Shown: one piece after another, positions 31,341 through 36,168 of the stretch
How the letters are laid out: each line of letters opens with the position of its first letter
Position numbering within the stretch: the stretch's first letter is position 1
From: an uncultured Gemmatimonadales bacterium
GTDB taxonomy: Bacteria; Gemmatimonadota; Gemmatimonadetes; Gemmatimonadales; Gemmatimonadaceae
Reading direction: 5' to 3'
Assembly: GCA_963701965.1 (NCBI GenBank)
Contig: OY969695.1
Coordinates: forward strand, 3,616,001-3,680,000
DNA: 64,000 bases
Notes under the pieces: model-generated
What the model was told of the DNA's origin: nothing
What the model saw: only the letters and a program-made list of their open reading frames with translations
The model's database searches: none
Position numbers and translations under genes: made by a program

Positions 31341-32148
31341 CTACCGTACACTTCCTGGCGGGAGCGAATAGAGCAGCCGCATCGTGGCCCGATCCTCGGG
31401 CGAGAGATCGCGGACGCGCACACGGGCCGTCATGATGTTCGTGGTATCCGCCGAGTGGTCGAGGCCCAGCAGGTGGCCGACCTCGTGCAGCGCGATGGCG
31501 CGTACCGCCGAGGCGTCGAGGGCCTCACCGCGATTGTGGTGCAGGGCGATCGAGAATGTTGGCGTCGACAATCCACCAGTTCTCGTCGCGCGCCCACATG
31601 GTCTTCCCCGAGATCTGCTCGTCGAAATGATCGCGGAACGTGACGTGCACGTCGGCGGTCGCCGAGTCGTGGACGAACACGAACGCGACGGGGACGCCGG
31701 TGTTCTGCCAGGTGACGAACGCATCCCGCGTCTGGTCGACGAATTCGGGCTTCCAATCGGGCAGCGTGTCGGCGGACTGGATCCACACCCGCAGCGGGTC
31801 GACCAACCGCTCCGGCCACCGGGCCAGCGAGGAGTCCCGCTCGGCCAGGATGTCGCCAATGTACGTCCCCGCCTCACCCTCGGTGAGGCGATGCCGGATG
31901 TCCGACACGTCACGAAGCGGAGCCGCCTCGTGGGCGTGCCCCGCGGCGACGGTCCCGCGACTGCCGGCGTCGCGGTCCTCCGCCGCCGGCGCGTGCGCGG
32001 AATGCGCCGCATCCGCGATCGTCGCTGCGCTCTGGGTCGTCGCCGCGCGCGCGGGTGCGATATCCTCTCGCACGGCGTCCGCTTGCGCAGCAATCCACCC
32101 GCCCATCGTCAGAAAGACGGCGATGAGCACCACGTCCGTTCGCTTCAT
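31341..32148 (-). pseudogene. Matrixin/M10-like zinc metalloprotease split by a 1-nt frameshift near 31555
   Basis: N-terminal frame (signal peptide ... WWIVDANI) switches to the frame holding 'HEVGHLLGLDH' and Met-turn 'NIM'; removing one base (AACATTCTCG to AACATCTCG) restores the gene. Confidence 0.8.
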
Positions 32149-32208: not shown

Positions 32209-32498
32209 TTGTGCCGCGGGCGCGGCACAGCTACGATAACTCGACCATTACCCTCTCAAACGCAAGCACGTTCCCTGGTTTTCCCGATCTTTTTATGCGC
32301 GGCGGTCGCCGCGTGTTCGAGCGCCACATCCCCCGCCGATCGTGGCCCGGAGGGCGAGGTCTAGACCACATTCCCGCCAAACCGTCTCAGATCACCGTCT
32401 ATCTCTCCCCGGGTAGCTACTCGGTGGCGGCGTGCGACGTGACGAGTAACCACACCGTTTACTGTGGCCAGGCGATGCCCGTTATCGTGACGCCGTAG
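32209..32498 (+). pseudogene. Possible decayed lipoprotein gene
   Basis: One frame gives 'RSLVFPIFLCAAVAAC-SSATSP' then a stop; another frame gives beta-rich 'ITVYLSPGSYSVAACD...VIVTP*'. Confidence 0.3.
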
Positions 32499-32548
32499 CC
32501 GCGACCCGCCGGAGCGCCCACGAGGCGTGGTCGCGGATTCTGACATCG

Positions 32549-33130
32549 CTAACGGCGCACGAAAGCGAGTAGCGGGGTGAAGTCGCCTCTGTCGGCCGCG
32601 CGCAGCGCATCGAGATAAGTCCGTCGCGCGTTGCTTGCCGCAACGAGATCACCGCTGCCCCATGAAAATCGCGGCTGGTCGTCGGCATGTAAAAGCGCAT
32701 CCGCCATGAGTCGAGCCCAGCGACCATTGCCGTTGGGCCAGGGATGCACGATCACCAACTGGTAGTGGAGTCGCGCCGCCGTGTCGTCGAGCGAGTACGC
32801 TTGGTCGACTCGCCATTGCATGGCATCCGCGAGGCGCTCGCGGAGCGCGACGCGTACCTGGCTGGCGGGGACGCCCATGTTCTTGTCCGTACGCCGATAG
32901 TGCCCCGACCACGCCCAGGTCTCATCGAACATCCGACAATGCAGTTGCTCGGCAAACCGGGGAGTGAGGATCGTCGACGCCGAACGGCGCCGGCGCGAAA
33001 TCGCCCATTCATCCGCGCGTGCAATGTTCAGCTGCTCCCACGCGTTCAACTCCGCTTGCGTCGTGATATGGGTTGGCAAGAGCCCCTCGGCCTCATCATG
33101 GTCGAGGGGCGTGGAGCGCGGACCTGCCAT
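32549..33130 (-). CDS. Mobile mystery protein B (Fic/DOC family)
   Basis: 'TPLDHDEAEGLLPTHITTQAELNAWEQLNI', Fic motif 'HPWPNGNGRWAR', 'YLDALRAADRGD'; ATG 33130. Confidence 0.9.
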   Translation of the reverse strand: MAGPRSTPLDHDEAEGLLPTHITTQAELNAWEQLNIARADEWAISRRRRSASTILTPRFAEQLHCRMFDETWAWSGHYRRTDKNMGVPASQVRVALRERLADAMQWRVDQAYSLDDTAARLHYQLVIVHPWPNGNGRWARLMADALLHADDQPRFSWGSGDLVAASNARRTYLDALRAADRGDFTPLLAFVRR

Positions 33131-33131
33131 A

Positions 33132-33647
33132 TCACTTCGGCCGGTATCGGCGACCCGCGGCCTGTCGCTTGGTTGGCGAGGGCTCGATATCCCAGAGGCG
33201 TCGCGGATTCTCGACCAATGCGGCCGCCAAGTCGGCGATCTGCGCGTCGAGATCGACGTCTCGCACGGCCTGGTCTTCGAGTGCCATGCTGTGCGCGACC
33301 CCCTGTAGCTTCTGAACTGCCACCTCGCGGGCACGCCGTTCGAGCACGCCGTCCAATGGGAGGCGAGGCACTATGGCGTACACGAGATCGCTGTCCAACG
33401 CCTCGGCAGCGCGTCGTAGCGCGCCAAGCGTAATGGTGTCCTCCCGCTCCCGTTGCTCGAGGCGGAGGGCATTGGACGGCGTGATGCGGAGACGCGCCGC
33501 GAACTGGCGGACCGTCATATCGAGAGCACCGCGCAGCGCGGCAATCCAGCCGTCACGCGGGCGGGGCGTGGCCGCCGCGGCGTAACGCGTGAGGGTCTCG
33601 GACAGCTGTCGCCTCGCAAGGCGCTGAAATTTGCCGGGGGGAGCCAT
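33132..33647 (-). CDS. Mobile mystery protein A (XRE-family HTH)
   Basis: 'PRDGWIAALRGALDMTVRQFAARL...LEQRE...ITLGALRRAAEAL...LVYAIVP', 'HSMALEDQ'; ATG 33647. Confidence 0.9.
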   Translation of the reverse strand: MAPPGKFQRLARRQLSETLTRYAAAATPRPRDGWIAALRGALDMTVRQFAARLRITPSNALRLEQREREDTITLGALRRAAEALDSDLVYAIVPRLPLDGVLERRAREVAVQKLQGVAHSMALEDQAVRDVDLDAQIADLAAALVENPRRLWDIEPSPTKRQAAGRRYRPK

Positions 33648-33662
33648 GCTTCTCTTTGAAGA

Positions 33663-33717
33663 TGTTGCTATATAGCGCAACAAGAGATATAGCAGAATGT
33701 TGCTATATATAGCAACA
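33663..33717. promoter_or_regulatory. Twin 20-bp palindromic operators upstream of mobile mystery A
   Basis: TGTTGCTATATAGCGCAACA (33663-33682) and perfect palindrome TGTTGCTATATATAGCAACA (33698-33717). Confidence 0.8.
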
Positions 33718-33722
33718 CCGCC

Positions 33723-34748
33723 CTAGGCTAGGGTCTTCCTCAGGGCCCACGCGGCGTGGTCGCGGACCATCGGATCGGGGTCGTGGGTCGCCGCTTTGGC
33801 GAGCGCGACGGCGTCTCCCGCCTGCCCACGGTTCCCGAGCACCACGGCGGCGTTGCGGGCCAGGCCGCGGCGCTTGGCGCGGGCGAGCGGCGTGTCGCGA
33901 TAGCGGGCGCGGAACGCGGCGTCGTCGAGCGACAGGAACTCGACCGGGTCTGGCTTGGCCAGGGAGTCGCGCCCGGCCAAGGCGGTGTCGCGCGGCGCGG
34001 TGGCGAACCGCGCGTTCCACGGGCAGACGTCCTGGCAAATGTCGCAGCCATAGAGATGGTCGCCCATGGACTCACGGAGCGGCTCCGGGATGGGGCCTTT
34101 GAGCTCGATCGTGAGATAGGAGATGCACCGGCGCGCATCCATCACCCGCGCCTCGACAAACGCGCCCGTGGGACACGCATCCAGGCACCGCGTGCAGGTG
34201 CCACAGTGATCGGGCGCGAACGGCGTATCGGACTCCAACGGCAAGTCGACGAAGAGCGCGCCCAGAAAGAAGAACGAGCCAAGGCGCGGATGGATCAACA
34301 TGGTGTTCTTGCCGAACCAGCCGAGTCCCGCCCGTCGGGCCAGGTCCCGCTCCAGGATCGGACCCGTGTCGACGTACGCCTTGCCCGGCACGGCGTGACC
34401 CACATCATGGTCGATCCACCCGTGCAGCTCGGCGAGCCGCTCCAACATGACATCGTGGTAGTCCCGCCCGCGCGCGTAGCGCGCGACGGGACCGGCAGGC
34501 GCCTTGCCGCCGTAGTCGAGCGCCACCACGATCGCGTGCGTGGCGCCGGGCACCGGGAGGCGGGTATCGCGCCGGCGCTCCGCGCCGCGCGCCAGATATC
34601 CCATCTCCCCCGCATACCCATCGGCCAGCCACGCGTCGAATGCGCTAGCGGTGGGAGCTGGACCGAGCGTGGTGATCCCGCAGAGCTGAAATCCCAGGCC
34701 GTAGGCCTGGGATTTGATGCGGGATTCGAGCGTCATCGCGTCGACCAT
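33723..34748 (-). CDS. queG: tRNA epoxyqueuosine(34) reductase QueG
   Basis: 'ARYARGRDYH', 'YVDTGPILER', 'CGTCTRCLDACPT', 'CISYLTIE', 'GCDICQDVCPWN'. Confidence 0.95.
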   Translation of the reverse strand: MVDAMTLESRIKSQAYGLGFQLCGITTLGPAPTASAFDAWLADGYAGEMGYLARGAERRRDTRLPVPGATHAIVVALDYGGKAPAGPVARYARGRDYHDVMLERLAELHGWIDHDVGHAVPGKAYVDTGPILERDLARRAGLGWFGKNTMLIHPRLGSFFFLGALFVDLPLESDTPFAPDHCGTCTRCLDACPTGAFVEARVMDARRCISYLTIELKGPIPEPLRESMGDHLYGCDICQDVCPWNARFATAPRDTALAGRDSLAKPDPVEFLSLDDAAFRARYRDTPLARAKRRGLARNAAVVLGNRGQAGDAVALAKAATHDPDPMVRDHAAWALRKTLA

Positions 34749-34975
34749 CGGGCGTAGCGCTCGACGTCGCGCGGCGGCGGCACCGCATCCGCGTCGCCGT
34801 ATGCCGTGTACATCCGCCAGCGGATGTACGCCCGGTCAGGCAGCGGCAAAAACGGTGGACGCCACGGCCATCCGCGCGAGCGGAAGCGCCAGGCCACGCG
34901 GACGAGGGCGATCGCCAGCGCCGGCCGAAGTGCGGCCCGCCCGGCGAGCGCGGCGGCTAGTCGGAACCATCGCAT
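34733..34975 (-). CDS. Conserved-looking small hypothetical protein
   Basis: MRWFRLAAAL...'PPFLPLPDRAYIRWRMYTAYG'; fills the gap between the M23 gene and queG with short overlaps. Confidence 0.7.
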   Translation of the reverse strand: MRWFRLAAALAGRAALRPALAIALVRVAWRFRSRGWPWRPPFLPLPDRAYIRWRMYTAYGDADAVPPPRDVERYARWSTR

Positions 34976-36168
34976 GCTCCCGCAATCTCGCGCCTGGACG
35001 CGGGACTGGGGAGCCATCCCAATGACAGGACGCCGTACGGGTCGACCACCGTATGATCGTACCGGACCACCCAATGCAGGTGCGGCCCCGTGACCCGCCC
35101 CGAATGACCCACCAGGCCAATGACCTGGCCCCGCTCGACCGTGTCGCCGATGGCGACGCGCGTGGCGCTCAAGTGGAAGTAGCCCGTCACCAGGCCGGCG
35201 CCATGGACGACATAGACCACGGTGCCCGCGAGAAAGAAATCGGCGACGAGCGCCACCACGCCCCGATTCGACGCCACGACCGTGTCGCCCGTCGCCCCGC
35301 GAAAATCGAGGCCGGTGTGCCGCGACGTCAGCGTGCCGTTGAAACGGCGGCCGCTGGCGAATGGGCTGGTGATGCGGCTCGAGCGCGGACGCGCGAAAGG
35401 GGCACGCCACAGCGGCGGCGTCGCCAGGGCAATGGTGCCTACCGTCCGGGCCAGATCGTTCTCGCCATCGATCCGGAGCGTCAGGTCGGACGTCGGCGGC
35501 CGGCTGAACTCCGGCGCCACGCGTAGCGGCTCCGCTTTCGCGGCCCGGGCGGCGACCGCCGGTGGTGGCGCCGAGATGGGGATCAGCGTGTCGTGCGCTA
35601 CTGTCAGACTGTCACCCGTCGTGTACGCAAGCCGCAAGCGCACCGTCGGACCCGAATCGAGCGGCACCGCGGCCAGCGCAATGTATCGGGCGGAGCTGTC
35701 GCGCCGGAAAATGACGGGCTCACCCGCGAACACGCCGCGCACCGGCGCGACGCCCGGTGATTCCGCACGGACCGTCAGCGTGACGAGCGTACCGGGCGTC
35801 GGCGAAGCCGGCGCGACGACGACGCGCGGCGGTGCAGCCGTCGTCGCGCCAGCGCGCGGTGGCTCGGCCGGGTGCCCGCGCGGACAGGGAGCAAAGCGCA
35901 CGGGGACGTCGATCGTGGCCGTTGCCCCGTCCGTCACGTCCGCCAGCGCGAGCCCCAAGCCGAGCGGTGTGCGCGCCGTCACGATCCAACGTCCGGAGGG
36001 AACGGCGTCGAACGCGAATCGGCCGCTGTCGTCGGCGAATGCCCCACGACCAAGTTGCGGAATCGCCACGCGCGCCCGCGCGGCCGTGTGACCGGTGAGT
36101 GGCGCCGGTAGCGGCCACCCACGGAGCGCGGCAATGACGAGCAGTGTCGTGCGAATCAGCGTGCGCAA
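34957..36168 (-). CDS. M23 peptidase with N-terminal carboxypeptidase-regulatory-like domain
   Basis: 'HTGLD', 'YFHL', 'GPHLHW'; N-terminal 'DDSGRFAFDAVPSGRW'. Confidence 0.85.
   Translation of the reverse strand: MRTLIRTTLLVIAALRGWPLPAPLTGHTAARARVAIPQLGRGAFADDSGRFAFDAVPSGRWIVTARTPLGLGLALADVTDGATATIDVPVRFAPCPRGHPAEPPRAGATTAAPPRVVVAPASPTPGTLVTLTVRAESPGVAPVRGVFAGEPVIFRRDSSARYIALAAVPLDSGPTVRLRLAYTTGDSLTVAHDTLIPISAPPPAVAARAAKAEPLRVAPEFSRPPTSDLTLRIDGENDLARTVGTIALATPPLWRAPFARPRSSRITSPFASGRRFNGTLTSRHTGLDFRGATGDTVVASNRGVVALVADFFLAGTVVYVVHGAGLVTGYFHLSATRVAIGDTVERGQVIGLVGHSGRVTGPHLHWVVRYDHTVVDPYGVLSLGWLPSPASRREIAGACDGSD

What the first reader, a model, noticed from the sequence alone, without database searches (positions are those of the whole stretch)
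32482..33766. 'Mobile mystery' A/B cassette integrated in the 3' end of queG with a duplicated gene tail
Seen: 22-bp direct repeats (1 mismatch) at 32516-32537 and 33745-33766 flank only the XRE and Fic genes. On the minus strand the intact queG ends VRDHAAWALRKTLA*, while the distal copy reads IRDHASWALRRVAATASR*, i.e. a second queG C-terminus. Established: integrative elements that target protein genes restore the 3' end and displace the original. Inference: this is an attL/attR-like scar for a ~1.2-kb integrase-less element, giving a concrete clue to how this poorly understood gene pair moves and identifying queG as a target site.
Basis: partly seen in the sequence, partly recalled or inferred. 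Interest (0 to 1): 0.78.

Follow-up and report, generated by a model that had tools for sequence, protein, structure and literature searches.

The report
Gene pair inserted in queG's tail
A two-gene 'mobile mystery' block (likely a toxin-antitoxin pair) sits inserted in the last codons of the tRNA-modification gene queG with the old gene end left behind it, and it likely travelled as a passenger from the cassette stacks that a serine integrase likely builds in queG of related soil bacteria.

Summary
Confirmed. The 22-bp repeat is real, and the distal copy is the ancestral queG end: same-genus G005 has no insert and ends ...AERVRATASR* (43/56 identical; beyond the repeat 23/34, against 7/34 for the intact end). 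queG is an integration hotspot in Gemmatimonadota: 176 displaced queG halves begin at one CA dinucleotide 90 codons upstream, a large serine recombinase lies convergent to queG in 10 genomes, and integration likely swaps its C-terminus. The scan noted that integrase system before on other DNA; I found no paper on it. The window's scar is not at that site: no arm, no such integrase, native 3' half. The same short scar recurs at queG in three other genera, and similar scars sit at about eight other genes of this genome. The gene pair is a passenger: its closest relatives lie in or near queG arrays, most others elsewhere. MmA carries a Fic-inhibitor-like motif (36/37). Best reading: short-homology capture of a queG-tail-plus-cargo piece (0.5); a second site-specific recombinase is the main rival (0.27).

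The parts
33723..34748 (-). queG, intact, 341 aa; native up to about the repeat, last 6 codons new
   Evidence: TIGR00276 above cut-off; 3' half nearest to same-genus QueG, 68-71%; no breakpoint at the CA site, Fisher p 0.18
34033..34034 (-). CA of the Gln codon in GCDICQDVCPWN: the serine-integrase target used in relatives, unused here
   Evidence: 176 displaced halves in relatives begin here; dyad symmetry centred on it, 0.48 against 0.25 background, n=171; no arm in this genome
33745..33766 (-). repeat copy 1, codons V-R-D-H-A-A-W-A of intact queG; holds the imperfect palindrome CCACG-3-CGTGG
33723..33744 (-). replacement queG end (LRKTLA*), likely from another QueG allele: L and R kept by synonymous changes against the old end
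   Evidence: 7/34 identity to the G005 end; sequence; inference
33698..33717 (.). palindromic operator-like site 1 (TTGC-N8-GCAA)
   Evidence: inverted/direct repeat D10, I16; the motif recurs at a 33-35 bp period, 2-5 times, upstream of the three closest mmA relatives and was not found at four other mm loci tested
33663..33682 (.). palindromic operator-like site 2
33132..33647 (-). mmA, mobile mystery protein A: XRE-type HTH plus a helix ending in S-M-A-L-E-D, a likely Fic-inhibitory motif
   Evidence: TIGR02612; [ST]MxLE in 36 of 37 homologues; M121 and L123 invariant, E124 nearly so; model pLDDT 90.8, helix 98-123
32549..33130 (-). mmB, mobile mystery protein B: Fic domain, HPWPNGNGRWAR
   Evidence: TIGR02613, PF02661 above cut-off; motif residues conserved; PDB relatives FICD, VbhT, NmFic
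32538..32548 (-). 11-bp spacer between the mmB stop and repeat copy 2; no conserved arm
   Evidence: sequence; no shared motif or dyad about the boundary in four cases
32516..32537 (-). repeat copy 2 (one change, Ala to Ser codon)
32482..32515 (-). displaced ancestral queG end (LRRVAATASR*)
   Evidence: 23/34 identical to the G005 end; blastn 83% over 53 nt
32211..32498 (+). convergent small ORF ending ...VIVTP*, overlapping the old queG end by 17 bp; likely a remnant of the lipoprotein gene that overlaps queG in G001, G003 and G004
   Evidence: 35% over the last 31 aa, E 0.007 for the single comparison; arrangement in congeners

Best explanation
A 1229-bp block holding a new queG end, two palindromic sites and the mobile-mystery A/B pair is inserted in the last codons of queG with the original end displaced downstream, and it likely entered as an integrase-less passenger by recombination at the short conserved VR[ED]HAAWAL block, likely as a piece of the cassette arrays that a serine integrase likely builds at queG in related Gemmatimonadota. 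Steps: (1) shown by sequence comparison: insertion and displaced end. (2) Shown as a pattern, mechanism inferred: a large serine recombinase family lies convergent to queG, and displaced queG halves start at one CA dinucleotide; each element brings a replacement 3' half, so elements stack up and decay into integrase-less units, many carrying toxin-antitoxin pairs. (3) Inferred: an mmAB unit of that pool, trimmed to a queG end plus cargo, recombined into this genome through the 22-bp block, the last well-conserved stretch of the gene, leaving queG intact. (4) Inferred: the block persists because MmB is a Fic toxin held in check by MmA, which also represses the operon at the palindromes.
For: Empty allele and tail identity. 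Insert G+C 0.64 and GC3 about 0.75 against 0.70 and 0.87 for queG. The window's mmAB forms a 100/100 clade with the G024 pair (directly behind a displaced queG half) and the G034 pair (9.7 kb behind queG) plus one short metagenome contig; 34 rows in the tree. The crossover is not at the integrase site: no arm, no queG-type integrase in G000 (best 28-31%, 2.7 Mb away), native 3' half. No arm motif or dyad at the short-scar boundary in four cases. Short displaced tails of varied length (26-115 nt matched) around cargo sit at about 8 unrelated genes of this genome among 12 inspected of 36 hits, against 7 control hits; only one has a tyrosine recombinase hit beside it. Only the two proximal operator-like sites are present, 5 bp from the new stop, against 4-5 in two relatives, as expected of a trimmed unit.
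Against: The short scars at queG in G000, G026, G171 and G008 all begin within 1-4 bases of the same Arg codon, which a sequence-blind process does not predict; my pattern needed the whole motif, which biases this, and one scar (G024) starts about 25 codons earlier. No donor with exactly this tail-plus-mmAB layout was found. Classical homology-facilitated illegitimate recombination deletes recipient DNA and is rare (PMC5361080, passages). For two of the other G000 scars I found no empty allele in 1.5-kb flanks of five congeners. G034's pair has no displaced tail between it and queG. MmA-MmB binding is untested, and the residue after the motif's Glu is seldom the canonical G or N.
Confidence: 0.5

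Rival explanations
1. A second site-specific recombinase, not found here, targets the VR[ED]HAAWAL codons; the block is a cis-mobilizable remnant and the repeats are true attL/attR.
For: Four short scars in four genera begin at the same place with 22-27 bp of identity and unrelated cargo of 1.2, 3.6 and 4.1 kb. Among 56 distinct motif occurrences, displaced copies are mostly either full halves from the CA site or short ones from V-R. The core holds an imperfect palindrome. Integrase-less tandem elements that keep att sites are well known (PMC5704250, PMC3146451, passages).
Against: No integrase in any of the three complete inserts; no shared arm or symmetric site about the boundary; no match for the site among viral contigs; similar scars of variable length at unrelated genes of the same genome.
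Confidence: 0.27
2. The known-site integrase inserted an element at the CA site, replacing the whole 3' half, and later deletions removed the integrase, the arm and all but the last 18 codons of the displaced half.
For: Arrays decay in this way: integrase remnants in G514, G589, G593, G606, G567 and G015; a displaced half in G514 has an internal deletion that rejoins at L-V-R-E; the G008 short scar lies 4.8 kb from an arm on the same strand; the window's 3' half is 65-68% identical to G001, G003, G004 and G005 where they are 86-87% to each other.
Against: The window's 3' half is nearest to same-genus QueG, not to any of 127 displaced halves; no excess of private changes after the CA site (p 0.18; share 0.48, inside the 0.41-0.62 range of five flanking genes); the antisense frame of the tail has a stop.
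Confidence: 0.15
3. MmA/MmB are themselves a mobility system that recognises or creates the repeat.
For: The insert is little more than operators plus the two genes; the pair has a scattered distribution (34 of 301 family genomes over the cut-off).
Against: No recombinase or transposase domain; 28 of 30 fetched loci show no queG within 1.5 kb; the other short queG scars carry unrelated cargo.
Confidence: 0.04
4. The repeat is a chance match.
For: Its score sits at my threshold, reached 7 times by the control in 4425 genes.
Against: In-frame match to the QueG motif, 23/34 further identity to the G005 end, overlap with the same convergent gene end as in congeners.
Confidence: 0.01

Closest known systems
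Dehalococcoides ssrA genomic islands with the serine integrase DsiB (PMC3146451; passages read)
   Same: Tandem islands at one single-copy gene, bounded by repeats of the gene's end; many lack an integration module; the serine integrase gene lies next to attL on the opposite strand and overlaps it, and the authors suggest it may be complete only on the circle.
   Different: Target is a protein gene (queG) cut about 100 codons before its end; the replacement is a coding half-gene read in both directions; the arm shows coding selection, whereas DsiB's overlap region was reported as divergent. The window's own scar is not at the integrase site.
CIMEs and tandem accretion of ICEs/IMEs (PMC5704250; passages read)
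   Same: Integrase-less elements that keep the target gene's end and stack with other elements.
   Different: The review ties non-disruptive 3'-end integration to tyrosine integrases and says site-specific serine-recombinase IMEs disrupt their targets; here a serine integrase restores the gene. For the window's block no att arms or integrase are shown.
Displacement arrays by homology-facilitated illegitimate recombination (Vibrio T6SS effector-immunity arrays, rhs C-terminal displacement; PMC5361080; passages read)
   Same: New DNA enters behind a conserved anchor without an integrase and pushes the old 3' part outward.
   Different: The anchor is a housekeeping gene; host sequence is duplicated over 22 bp, not only replaced; the boundary recurs at one motif.
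Site-specific large serine recombinases that target genes (Durrant et al., PMC10083194; passages and 8 supplementary files searched; att-site anatomy from PMC3783163, passages)
   Same: PF00239 plus PF07508 domains, zinc-ribbon cysteines, a two-base crossover inside a gene with dyad symmetry on the element side.
   Different: queG and Gemmatimonadota names did not occur in the text or files searched; the integrase frame runs about 140 codons antisense through the replacement half.
Class I Fic toxin-antitoxin modules (VbhTA, FicTA; motif definition from PMC5651007, passages); Xre-Fic/Doc neighbours counted in PMC2701414 (passages)
   Same: A Fic protein without its own inhibitory helix next to a small upstream partner with an (S/T)xxxE motif on a helix.
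   Different: MmA is longer and adds an XRE HTH with an operator array; the motif ends in D/A/Q/E/S more often than G/N; MmB has Asn at the D/E position of the Fic motif.

Membership tests
Mobile mystery A/B (TIGR02612/TIGR02613) | Both proteins above the curated cut-offs, adjacent and co-oriented | tested here: met
   one base between the genes
Gene-end insertion with displaced tail | Empty allele in relatives whose end matches the distal copy | tested here: met
   G005, 43/56
Gene-end insertion with displaced tail | Target gene left intact by a replacement end | tested here: met
   341-aa QueG above cut-off
queG serine-integrase element (relatives) | Crossover at the CA of GCDICQ with arm and displaced 3' half | tested here: not met
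   no arm or displaced half in G000; scar starts 270 bp downstream
queG serine-integrase element (relatives) | Integrase or remnant convergent to the queG tail | tested here: not met
queG serine-integrase element (relatives) | 3' half of intact queG of foreign origin | tested here: not met
   the power of the test is limited (about 100 codons, tree poorly resolved)
CIME (cis-mobilizable element) | No integration or transfer genes | tested here: met
CIME (cis-mobilizable element) | Functional attL/attR of a site-specific recombinase | tested here: inconclusive
   recurrent boundary but no arm, dyad or enzyme
CIME (cis-mobilizable element) | Excision or mobilisation with an adjacent element | not testable with these tools
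   the one run found gave thin contig cover and none across the junctions
Homology-facilitated illegitimate recombination | One homologous anchor and one illegitimate joint | tested here: inconclusive
   right joint has no visible homology beyond the repeat; donor unknown
Class I Fic toxin-antitoxin | Fic catalytic motif | tested here: met
   HPWPNGNGRWAR; G, N, G, R, R invariant and H nearly so in 34 rows; Asn replaces D/E
Class I Fic toxin-antitoxin | (S/T)xxxE(G/N) inhibitory motif on the partner | tested here: inconclusive
   [ST]xxxE in 36 of 37 at a helix end, last position mostly not G/N
Class I Fic toxin-antitoxin | Toxicity, neutralisation and complex formation | not testable with these tools
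   no bench data; the complex predictor was not available
Large serine recombinase (relatives' integrase) | PF00239 and PF07508 above cut-off | tested here: met
   two proteins
Large serine recombinase (relatives' integrase) | Recombination of attP with attB at the central dinucleotide | not testable with these tools
   inferred from fixed boundary and symmetry
Integron | IntI tyrosine recombinase beside the array | tested here: not met
   no PF00589 hit on the array contigs of G015 or G024, nor near queG in G007 or G034

The most novel reading that the evidence does not exclude
queG is a two-door capture platform in Gemmatimonadota. A serine integrase whose own last 25 residues exist only on the free circle, reached by reading about 140 codons antisense through a spare queG half, stacks toxin-antitoxin-rich cassettes in integron-like arrays, and a second, undescribed recombinase acting at the VR[ED]HAAWAL codons moves small pieces of those arrays, such as this mobile-mystery pair, which is a Fic toxin-antitoxin system with an inhibitory-helix antitoxin.
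Probability: 0.22. Interest if true: 0.82.

Novelty: new variant of a known kind. Interest (0 to 1): 0.58.

Why it matters
The window gives a clean, dated-by-relatives case of a toxin-antitoxin-like pair captured at the end of a housekeeping gene without an integrase. It leads to a phylum-wide hotspot: queG, not reported as a target in the papers searched, collects stacks of more than 20 cassettes, and its integrase likely has its C-terminus rewritten by its own reaction, a testable form of directionality control that was only suggested for Dehalococcoides DsiB. A source names one member of the integrase family as a recombinase of Gemmatirosa kalamazoonensis (P0136), so the enzyme can be assayed. 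The motif in MmA gives the two decades-old 'mobile mystery' families a concrete, testable function.

Tried and rejected
Other mm copies or queG paralogues in G000: none. Recombinases in cis for the G015, G024, G007 and G034 arrays: no PF00589, PF00239 or PF07508 hit on or near them, and none among 174 ORFs scanned with Pfam. The arm as the end of a second target gene: rejected, the profile hits were antisense readings of queG tails and integrase C-termini. Longer homologues of P0043 residues 1-75: none. Viral contigs: no match for either site pattern. Phage and plasmid collections: one weak phage hit at 24.5% and no plasmid hit for the integrase. Public runs: no RNA holder listed; one DNA run with a small share gave no cover of the junctions. 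Promoter/terminator scan, tRNA and Rfam scans: nothing useful. The wider site-2 pattern over the order mostly hit leuD-like motifs (one checked); two further motif hits (G102, G105) were left unassigned. Empty alleles for two other G000 scars: not found in 1.5-kb flanks. MmA model against the PDB: only weak HipB/HigA-type HTH matches, E above 0.1. Literature searches with no paper on queG as an integration site: 0 papers; queG or queuosine terms 0 in all rows listed; on the mm pair only passing mentions. bioRxiv supplements were not visible and long tables may be cut, so a listing of queG in integrase-target tables cannot be excluded.
Full report
Observation. The window holds, on the minus strand, queG (33723-34748), two 20-bp palindromes (33698-33717, 33663-33682), mmA (33132-33647), mmB (32549-33130), an 11-bp spacer and a second copy of the queG end (32537-32482). 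All three proteins pass their NCBIfam cut-offs. The 22-bp repeat has one mismatch and occurs nowhere else in the genome at up to 3 mismatches. Alone it is only modestly unusual: 7 of 4425 genes reach the same score in an opposite-strand control.

Empty allele. All 5 same-genus genomes have queG and none has the gene pair there. G005 ends VREHAAWAAERVRATASR* and the M10 peptidase follows 165 bp later; G001, G003 and G004 end ...EAMALR* overlapping a convergent lipoprotein gene; G002 has 4 kb of other genes and no tail repeat. The window's distal 56 nt are 43/56 identical to the G005 end, 23/34 beyond the repeat, while the intact gene's new end is 7/34; upstream of the repeat the intact copy is 35/60 and the distal copy 14/60. 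The distal tail overlaps a small convergent ORF whose last 31 residues resemble the lipoprotein of G004 (35%, E 0.007). The insert has lower G+C (0.64) and GC3 (0.74-0.76) than queG (0.70, 0.87). So the distal copy is the displaced original end. The new end keeps A-L-R through synonymous changes, so it likely came from another queG allele (sequence; inference).

queG is a hotspot in the phylum. The organism is inferred to be a Gemmatimonadaceae member from the titles and names that came. A QueG search of 61 genomes gave extra partial copies in several, 21 matches in G015. The displaced halves begin at one point, the Gln codon of GCDICQDVCPWN, behind a conserved arm. A pattern for this junction hit 119 stretches of the species-representative genomes; the 80 listed rows come from 42 assemblies by my count of record prefixes, 37 titled as Gemmatimonadota and 5 as other groups on contigs of 2-18 kb, which may be misbinned. 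Across the loci then held there are 176 distinct junctions, on one strand within each of 109 loci, 0.6-10.7 kb apart (median 3.2 kb, 67 intervals), 23 of them in the G015 stretches fetched. Dyad symmetry peaks on the CA dinucleotide (0.48 against 0.25; n=171), as expected of a serine-integrase site (PMC3783163, passages). Cargo in 174 ORFs scanned includes MazEF, VapBC, BrnTA, HigBA, Fic/Doc, DUF4160/DUF2442 and XRE-DUF6036 pairs, kinases and metabolic genes, and no recombinase.

The integrase. The arm is under coding selection on the antisense strand: only that frame has more synonymous than non-synonymous differences (3307 against 2646; 40 sampled arms, all chosen for having the common stop), and 65 of 176 arms stop at the same codon using all three stop codons. 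A profile of the peptide led to P0043 and then to full-length large serine recombinases (PF00239 and PF07508 above cut-off) lying convergent to intact queG. Of 401 phylum genomes 15 match; in 10 the match lies beside a queG tail: open frames in G068, G090 and G135, broken in G568 and G547, remnants in G514, G589, G593, G606 and G015; the other 5 are 27-30% matches, of which only G000's was placed (2.7 Mb from queG). Of 76 homologues, 69 read antisense through the queG half to the crossover: 33 stop exactly there, 32 run on into host sequence, 4 run into an arm or arm-like start; 7 do not reach it. So the circle would encode a conserved 25-residue end that integration removes (inferred). The two complete elements (G090, G068) span 23-27 kb, appear from my reading of the translations to carry restriction-modification genes, and share with G135 a 74-80 aa ORF upstream of the integrase (40-65% identical). 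I reached this before one search showed two earlier notes of the scan (e1-8427655, e1-7330771) with the same reading on other genomes; they are not independent support.

The window is not a product of that site. G000 has no arm and no queG-type integrase. Its QueG 3' half is nearest to congeners (68-71%) among 29 other intact and 127 displaced halves; the tree of 64 rows is poorly resolved. Private changes show no step at the CA site (p 0.18), and the 3' share (0.48) lies inside the range of five flanking genes (0.41-0.62). Against this, the 3' half is less similar to G001, G003, G004 and G005 (65-68%) than they are to each other (86-87%).

Short scars recur. A motif search of 301 family genomes (86 with a match), with 20 follow-up stretches, gave the same short scar in G026 (3.6 kb insert) and G171 (4.1 kb) behind intact queG, and in G008 on another contig 4.8 kb before an arm. 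All begin 1-4 bases before the Arg codon, share 22-27 bp with the intact gene and then diverge; none of the complete inserts has an integrase. Of 56 distinct motif occurrences in my loci, 4 are such scars, 1 is an internal deletion rejoining at L-V-R-E (G514), 1 starts about 25 codons earlier (G024), 1 is leuD, 2 are unassigned, and the rest are intact genes or full halves. The pattern needs the whole motif, which biases the boundary. No arm motif or dyad marks the boundary; the only symmetry is the palindrome inside the coding motif. Within G000, 36 genes have a 3'-end repeat within 12 kb against 7 in the control; of 12 inspected, 8 look like displaced tails around cargo, 1 is an IS remnant and 3 are paralogues or probable paralogues; one of the 8 has a tyrosine recombinase hit at its far end. 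Tests for empty alleles at two of them were inconclusive.

The gene pair. 34 of 301 family genomes have MmB over the cut-off. Of 30 loci fetched, only the window's and G024's have queG sequence within 1.5 kb; G034's pair lies 9.7 kb behind queG with no displaced half between. These three and one short metagenome contig form a 100/100 clade among 34 concatenated pairs; near-duplicates and loci without both full frames were left out. Kin share locations, so this may be one old association, not three events. The clade shares TTGC-N8-GCAA sites at a 33-35 bp period; the window keeps two. MmB has a Fic motif with Asn at the D/E position (canonical motif from the abstract of PMC7479194 in the listing). 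MmA has a HipB/HigA-like HTH (weak matches) and [ST]MxLE in 36 of 37 homologues at the end of a long helix, which fits the (S/T)xxxE part of the Fic inhibitory motif (PMC5651007, passages) but seldom its last position. Binding and toxicity are untested.

Mechanism. Shown: insertion, displaced end, hotspot, integrase anatomy. Inferred: integrase action at CA, the C-terminal swap, and the route of the window's block. I favour short-homology capture of a queG-end-plus-cargo piece from the array pool (0.5), because the block has a real queG end, its relatives sit in or near arrays, and this genome has many variable-length scars without integrases. A second site-specific recombinase (0.27) explains the recurring boundary better but has no enzyme or arm. 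Integration at CA followed by deletion (0.15) fits array decay but not the native 3' half.

Comparison and novelty. Closest known: Dehalococcoides ssrA islands with DsiB overlapping attL (PMC3146451, passages), CIME accretion (PMC5704250, passages), displacement arrays (PMC5361080, passages) and gene-targeting serine recombinases (PMC10083194, passages and 8 supplementary files without queG). Searches found no paper on queG as an integration site; some searches found only passing mentions of the mm pair (one table files TIGR02613 under Fic/Doc). The library lacks most subscription papers. Verdict: a real feature, a new variant of a known kind.

Noticed in passing
window 31341-32148 (-): The M10/matrixin peptidase gene is split by a frame change near 31554; congeners have one 260-272 aa frame. 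Sequencing error or pseudogene.
   Followed up: partly
G000:C1 genes ending near 2114645, 3770433, 1374914, 3786675, 3084724, 3164556, 369798, 2005358: Displaced gene-tail scars (26-115 nt matched) around 0.5-12 kb of cargo at unrelated genes; only the 3084724 block has a tyrosine recombinase hit (3072860).
   Followed up: partly
L269:12028-12252, L331:2919-3158 and the matching ORF in G068: Conserved 74-80 aa ORF directly upstream of the queG integrase; candidate directionality factor.
   Followed up: partly
L031-L039 (G015): At least 23 arm-plus-queG-half junctions over several contigs, rich in toxin-antitoxin pairs and Ser/Thr kinases; the intact QueG reads CQTCCPWN like the cassette halves, so its 3' half looks element-derived.
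   Followed up: partly
L028, L029, L030 (G034, G007, G025): Intact QueG ends about 75 codons after the CA site, as many displaced halves do, so integration can leave QueG without its last HEAT-like repeat.
   Followed up: no
L277 near G514:C1:4953200: A displaced half has an internal deletion, likely between the near-identical L-A-R-E and L-V-R-E codon blocks of the QueG tail.
   Followed up: partly
L046, L047 (G001, G003): The convergent lipoprotein gene behind queG is present in two tandem copies, one in G004, none in G005.
   Followed up: no
window 33721-33733: A perfect palindrome (CCCTAG-C-CTAGGG) spans the new queG stop codon.
   Followed up: no
window about 34740-34990 (-): A conserved 82-aa ORF without Pfam hit lies directly upstream of queG in most family genomes seen.
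   Followed up: no
L321:3448: leuD encodes a REHAAWAL motif that mimics the queG scar in pattern searches.
   Followed up: yes
L352-L356: The DNA behind the DUF58-like gene differs in each of five congeners, a likely further insertion hotspot.
   Followed up: no
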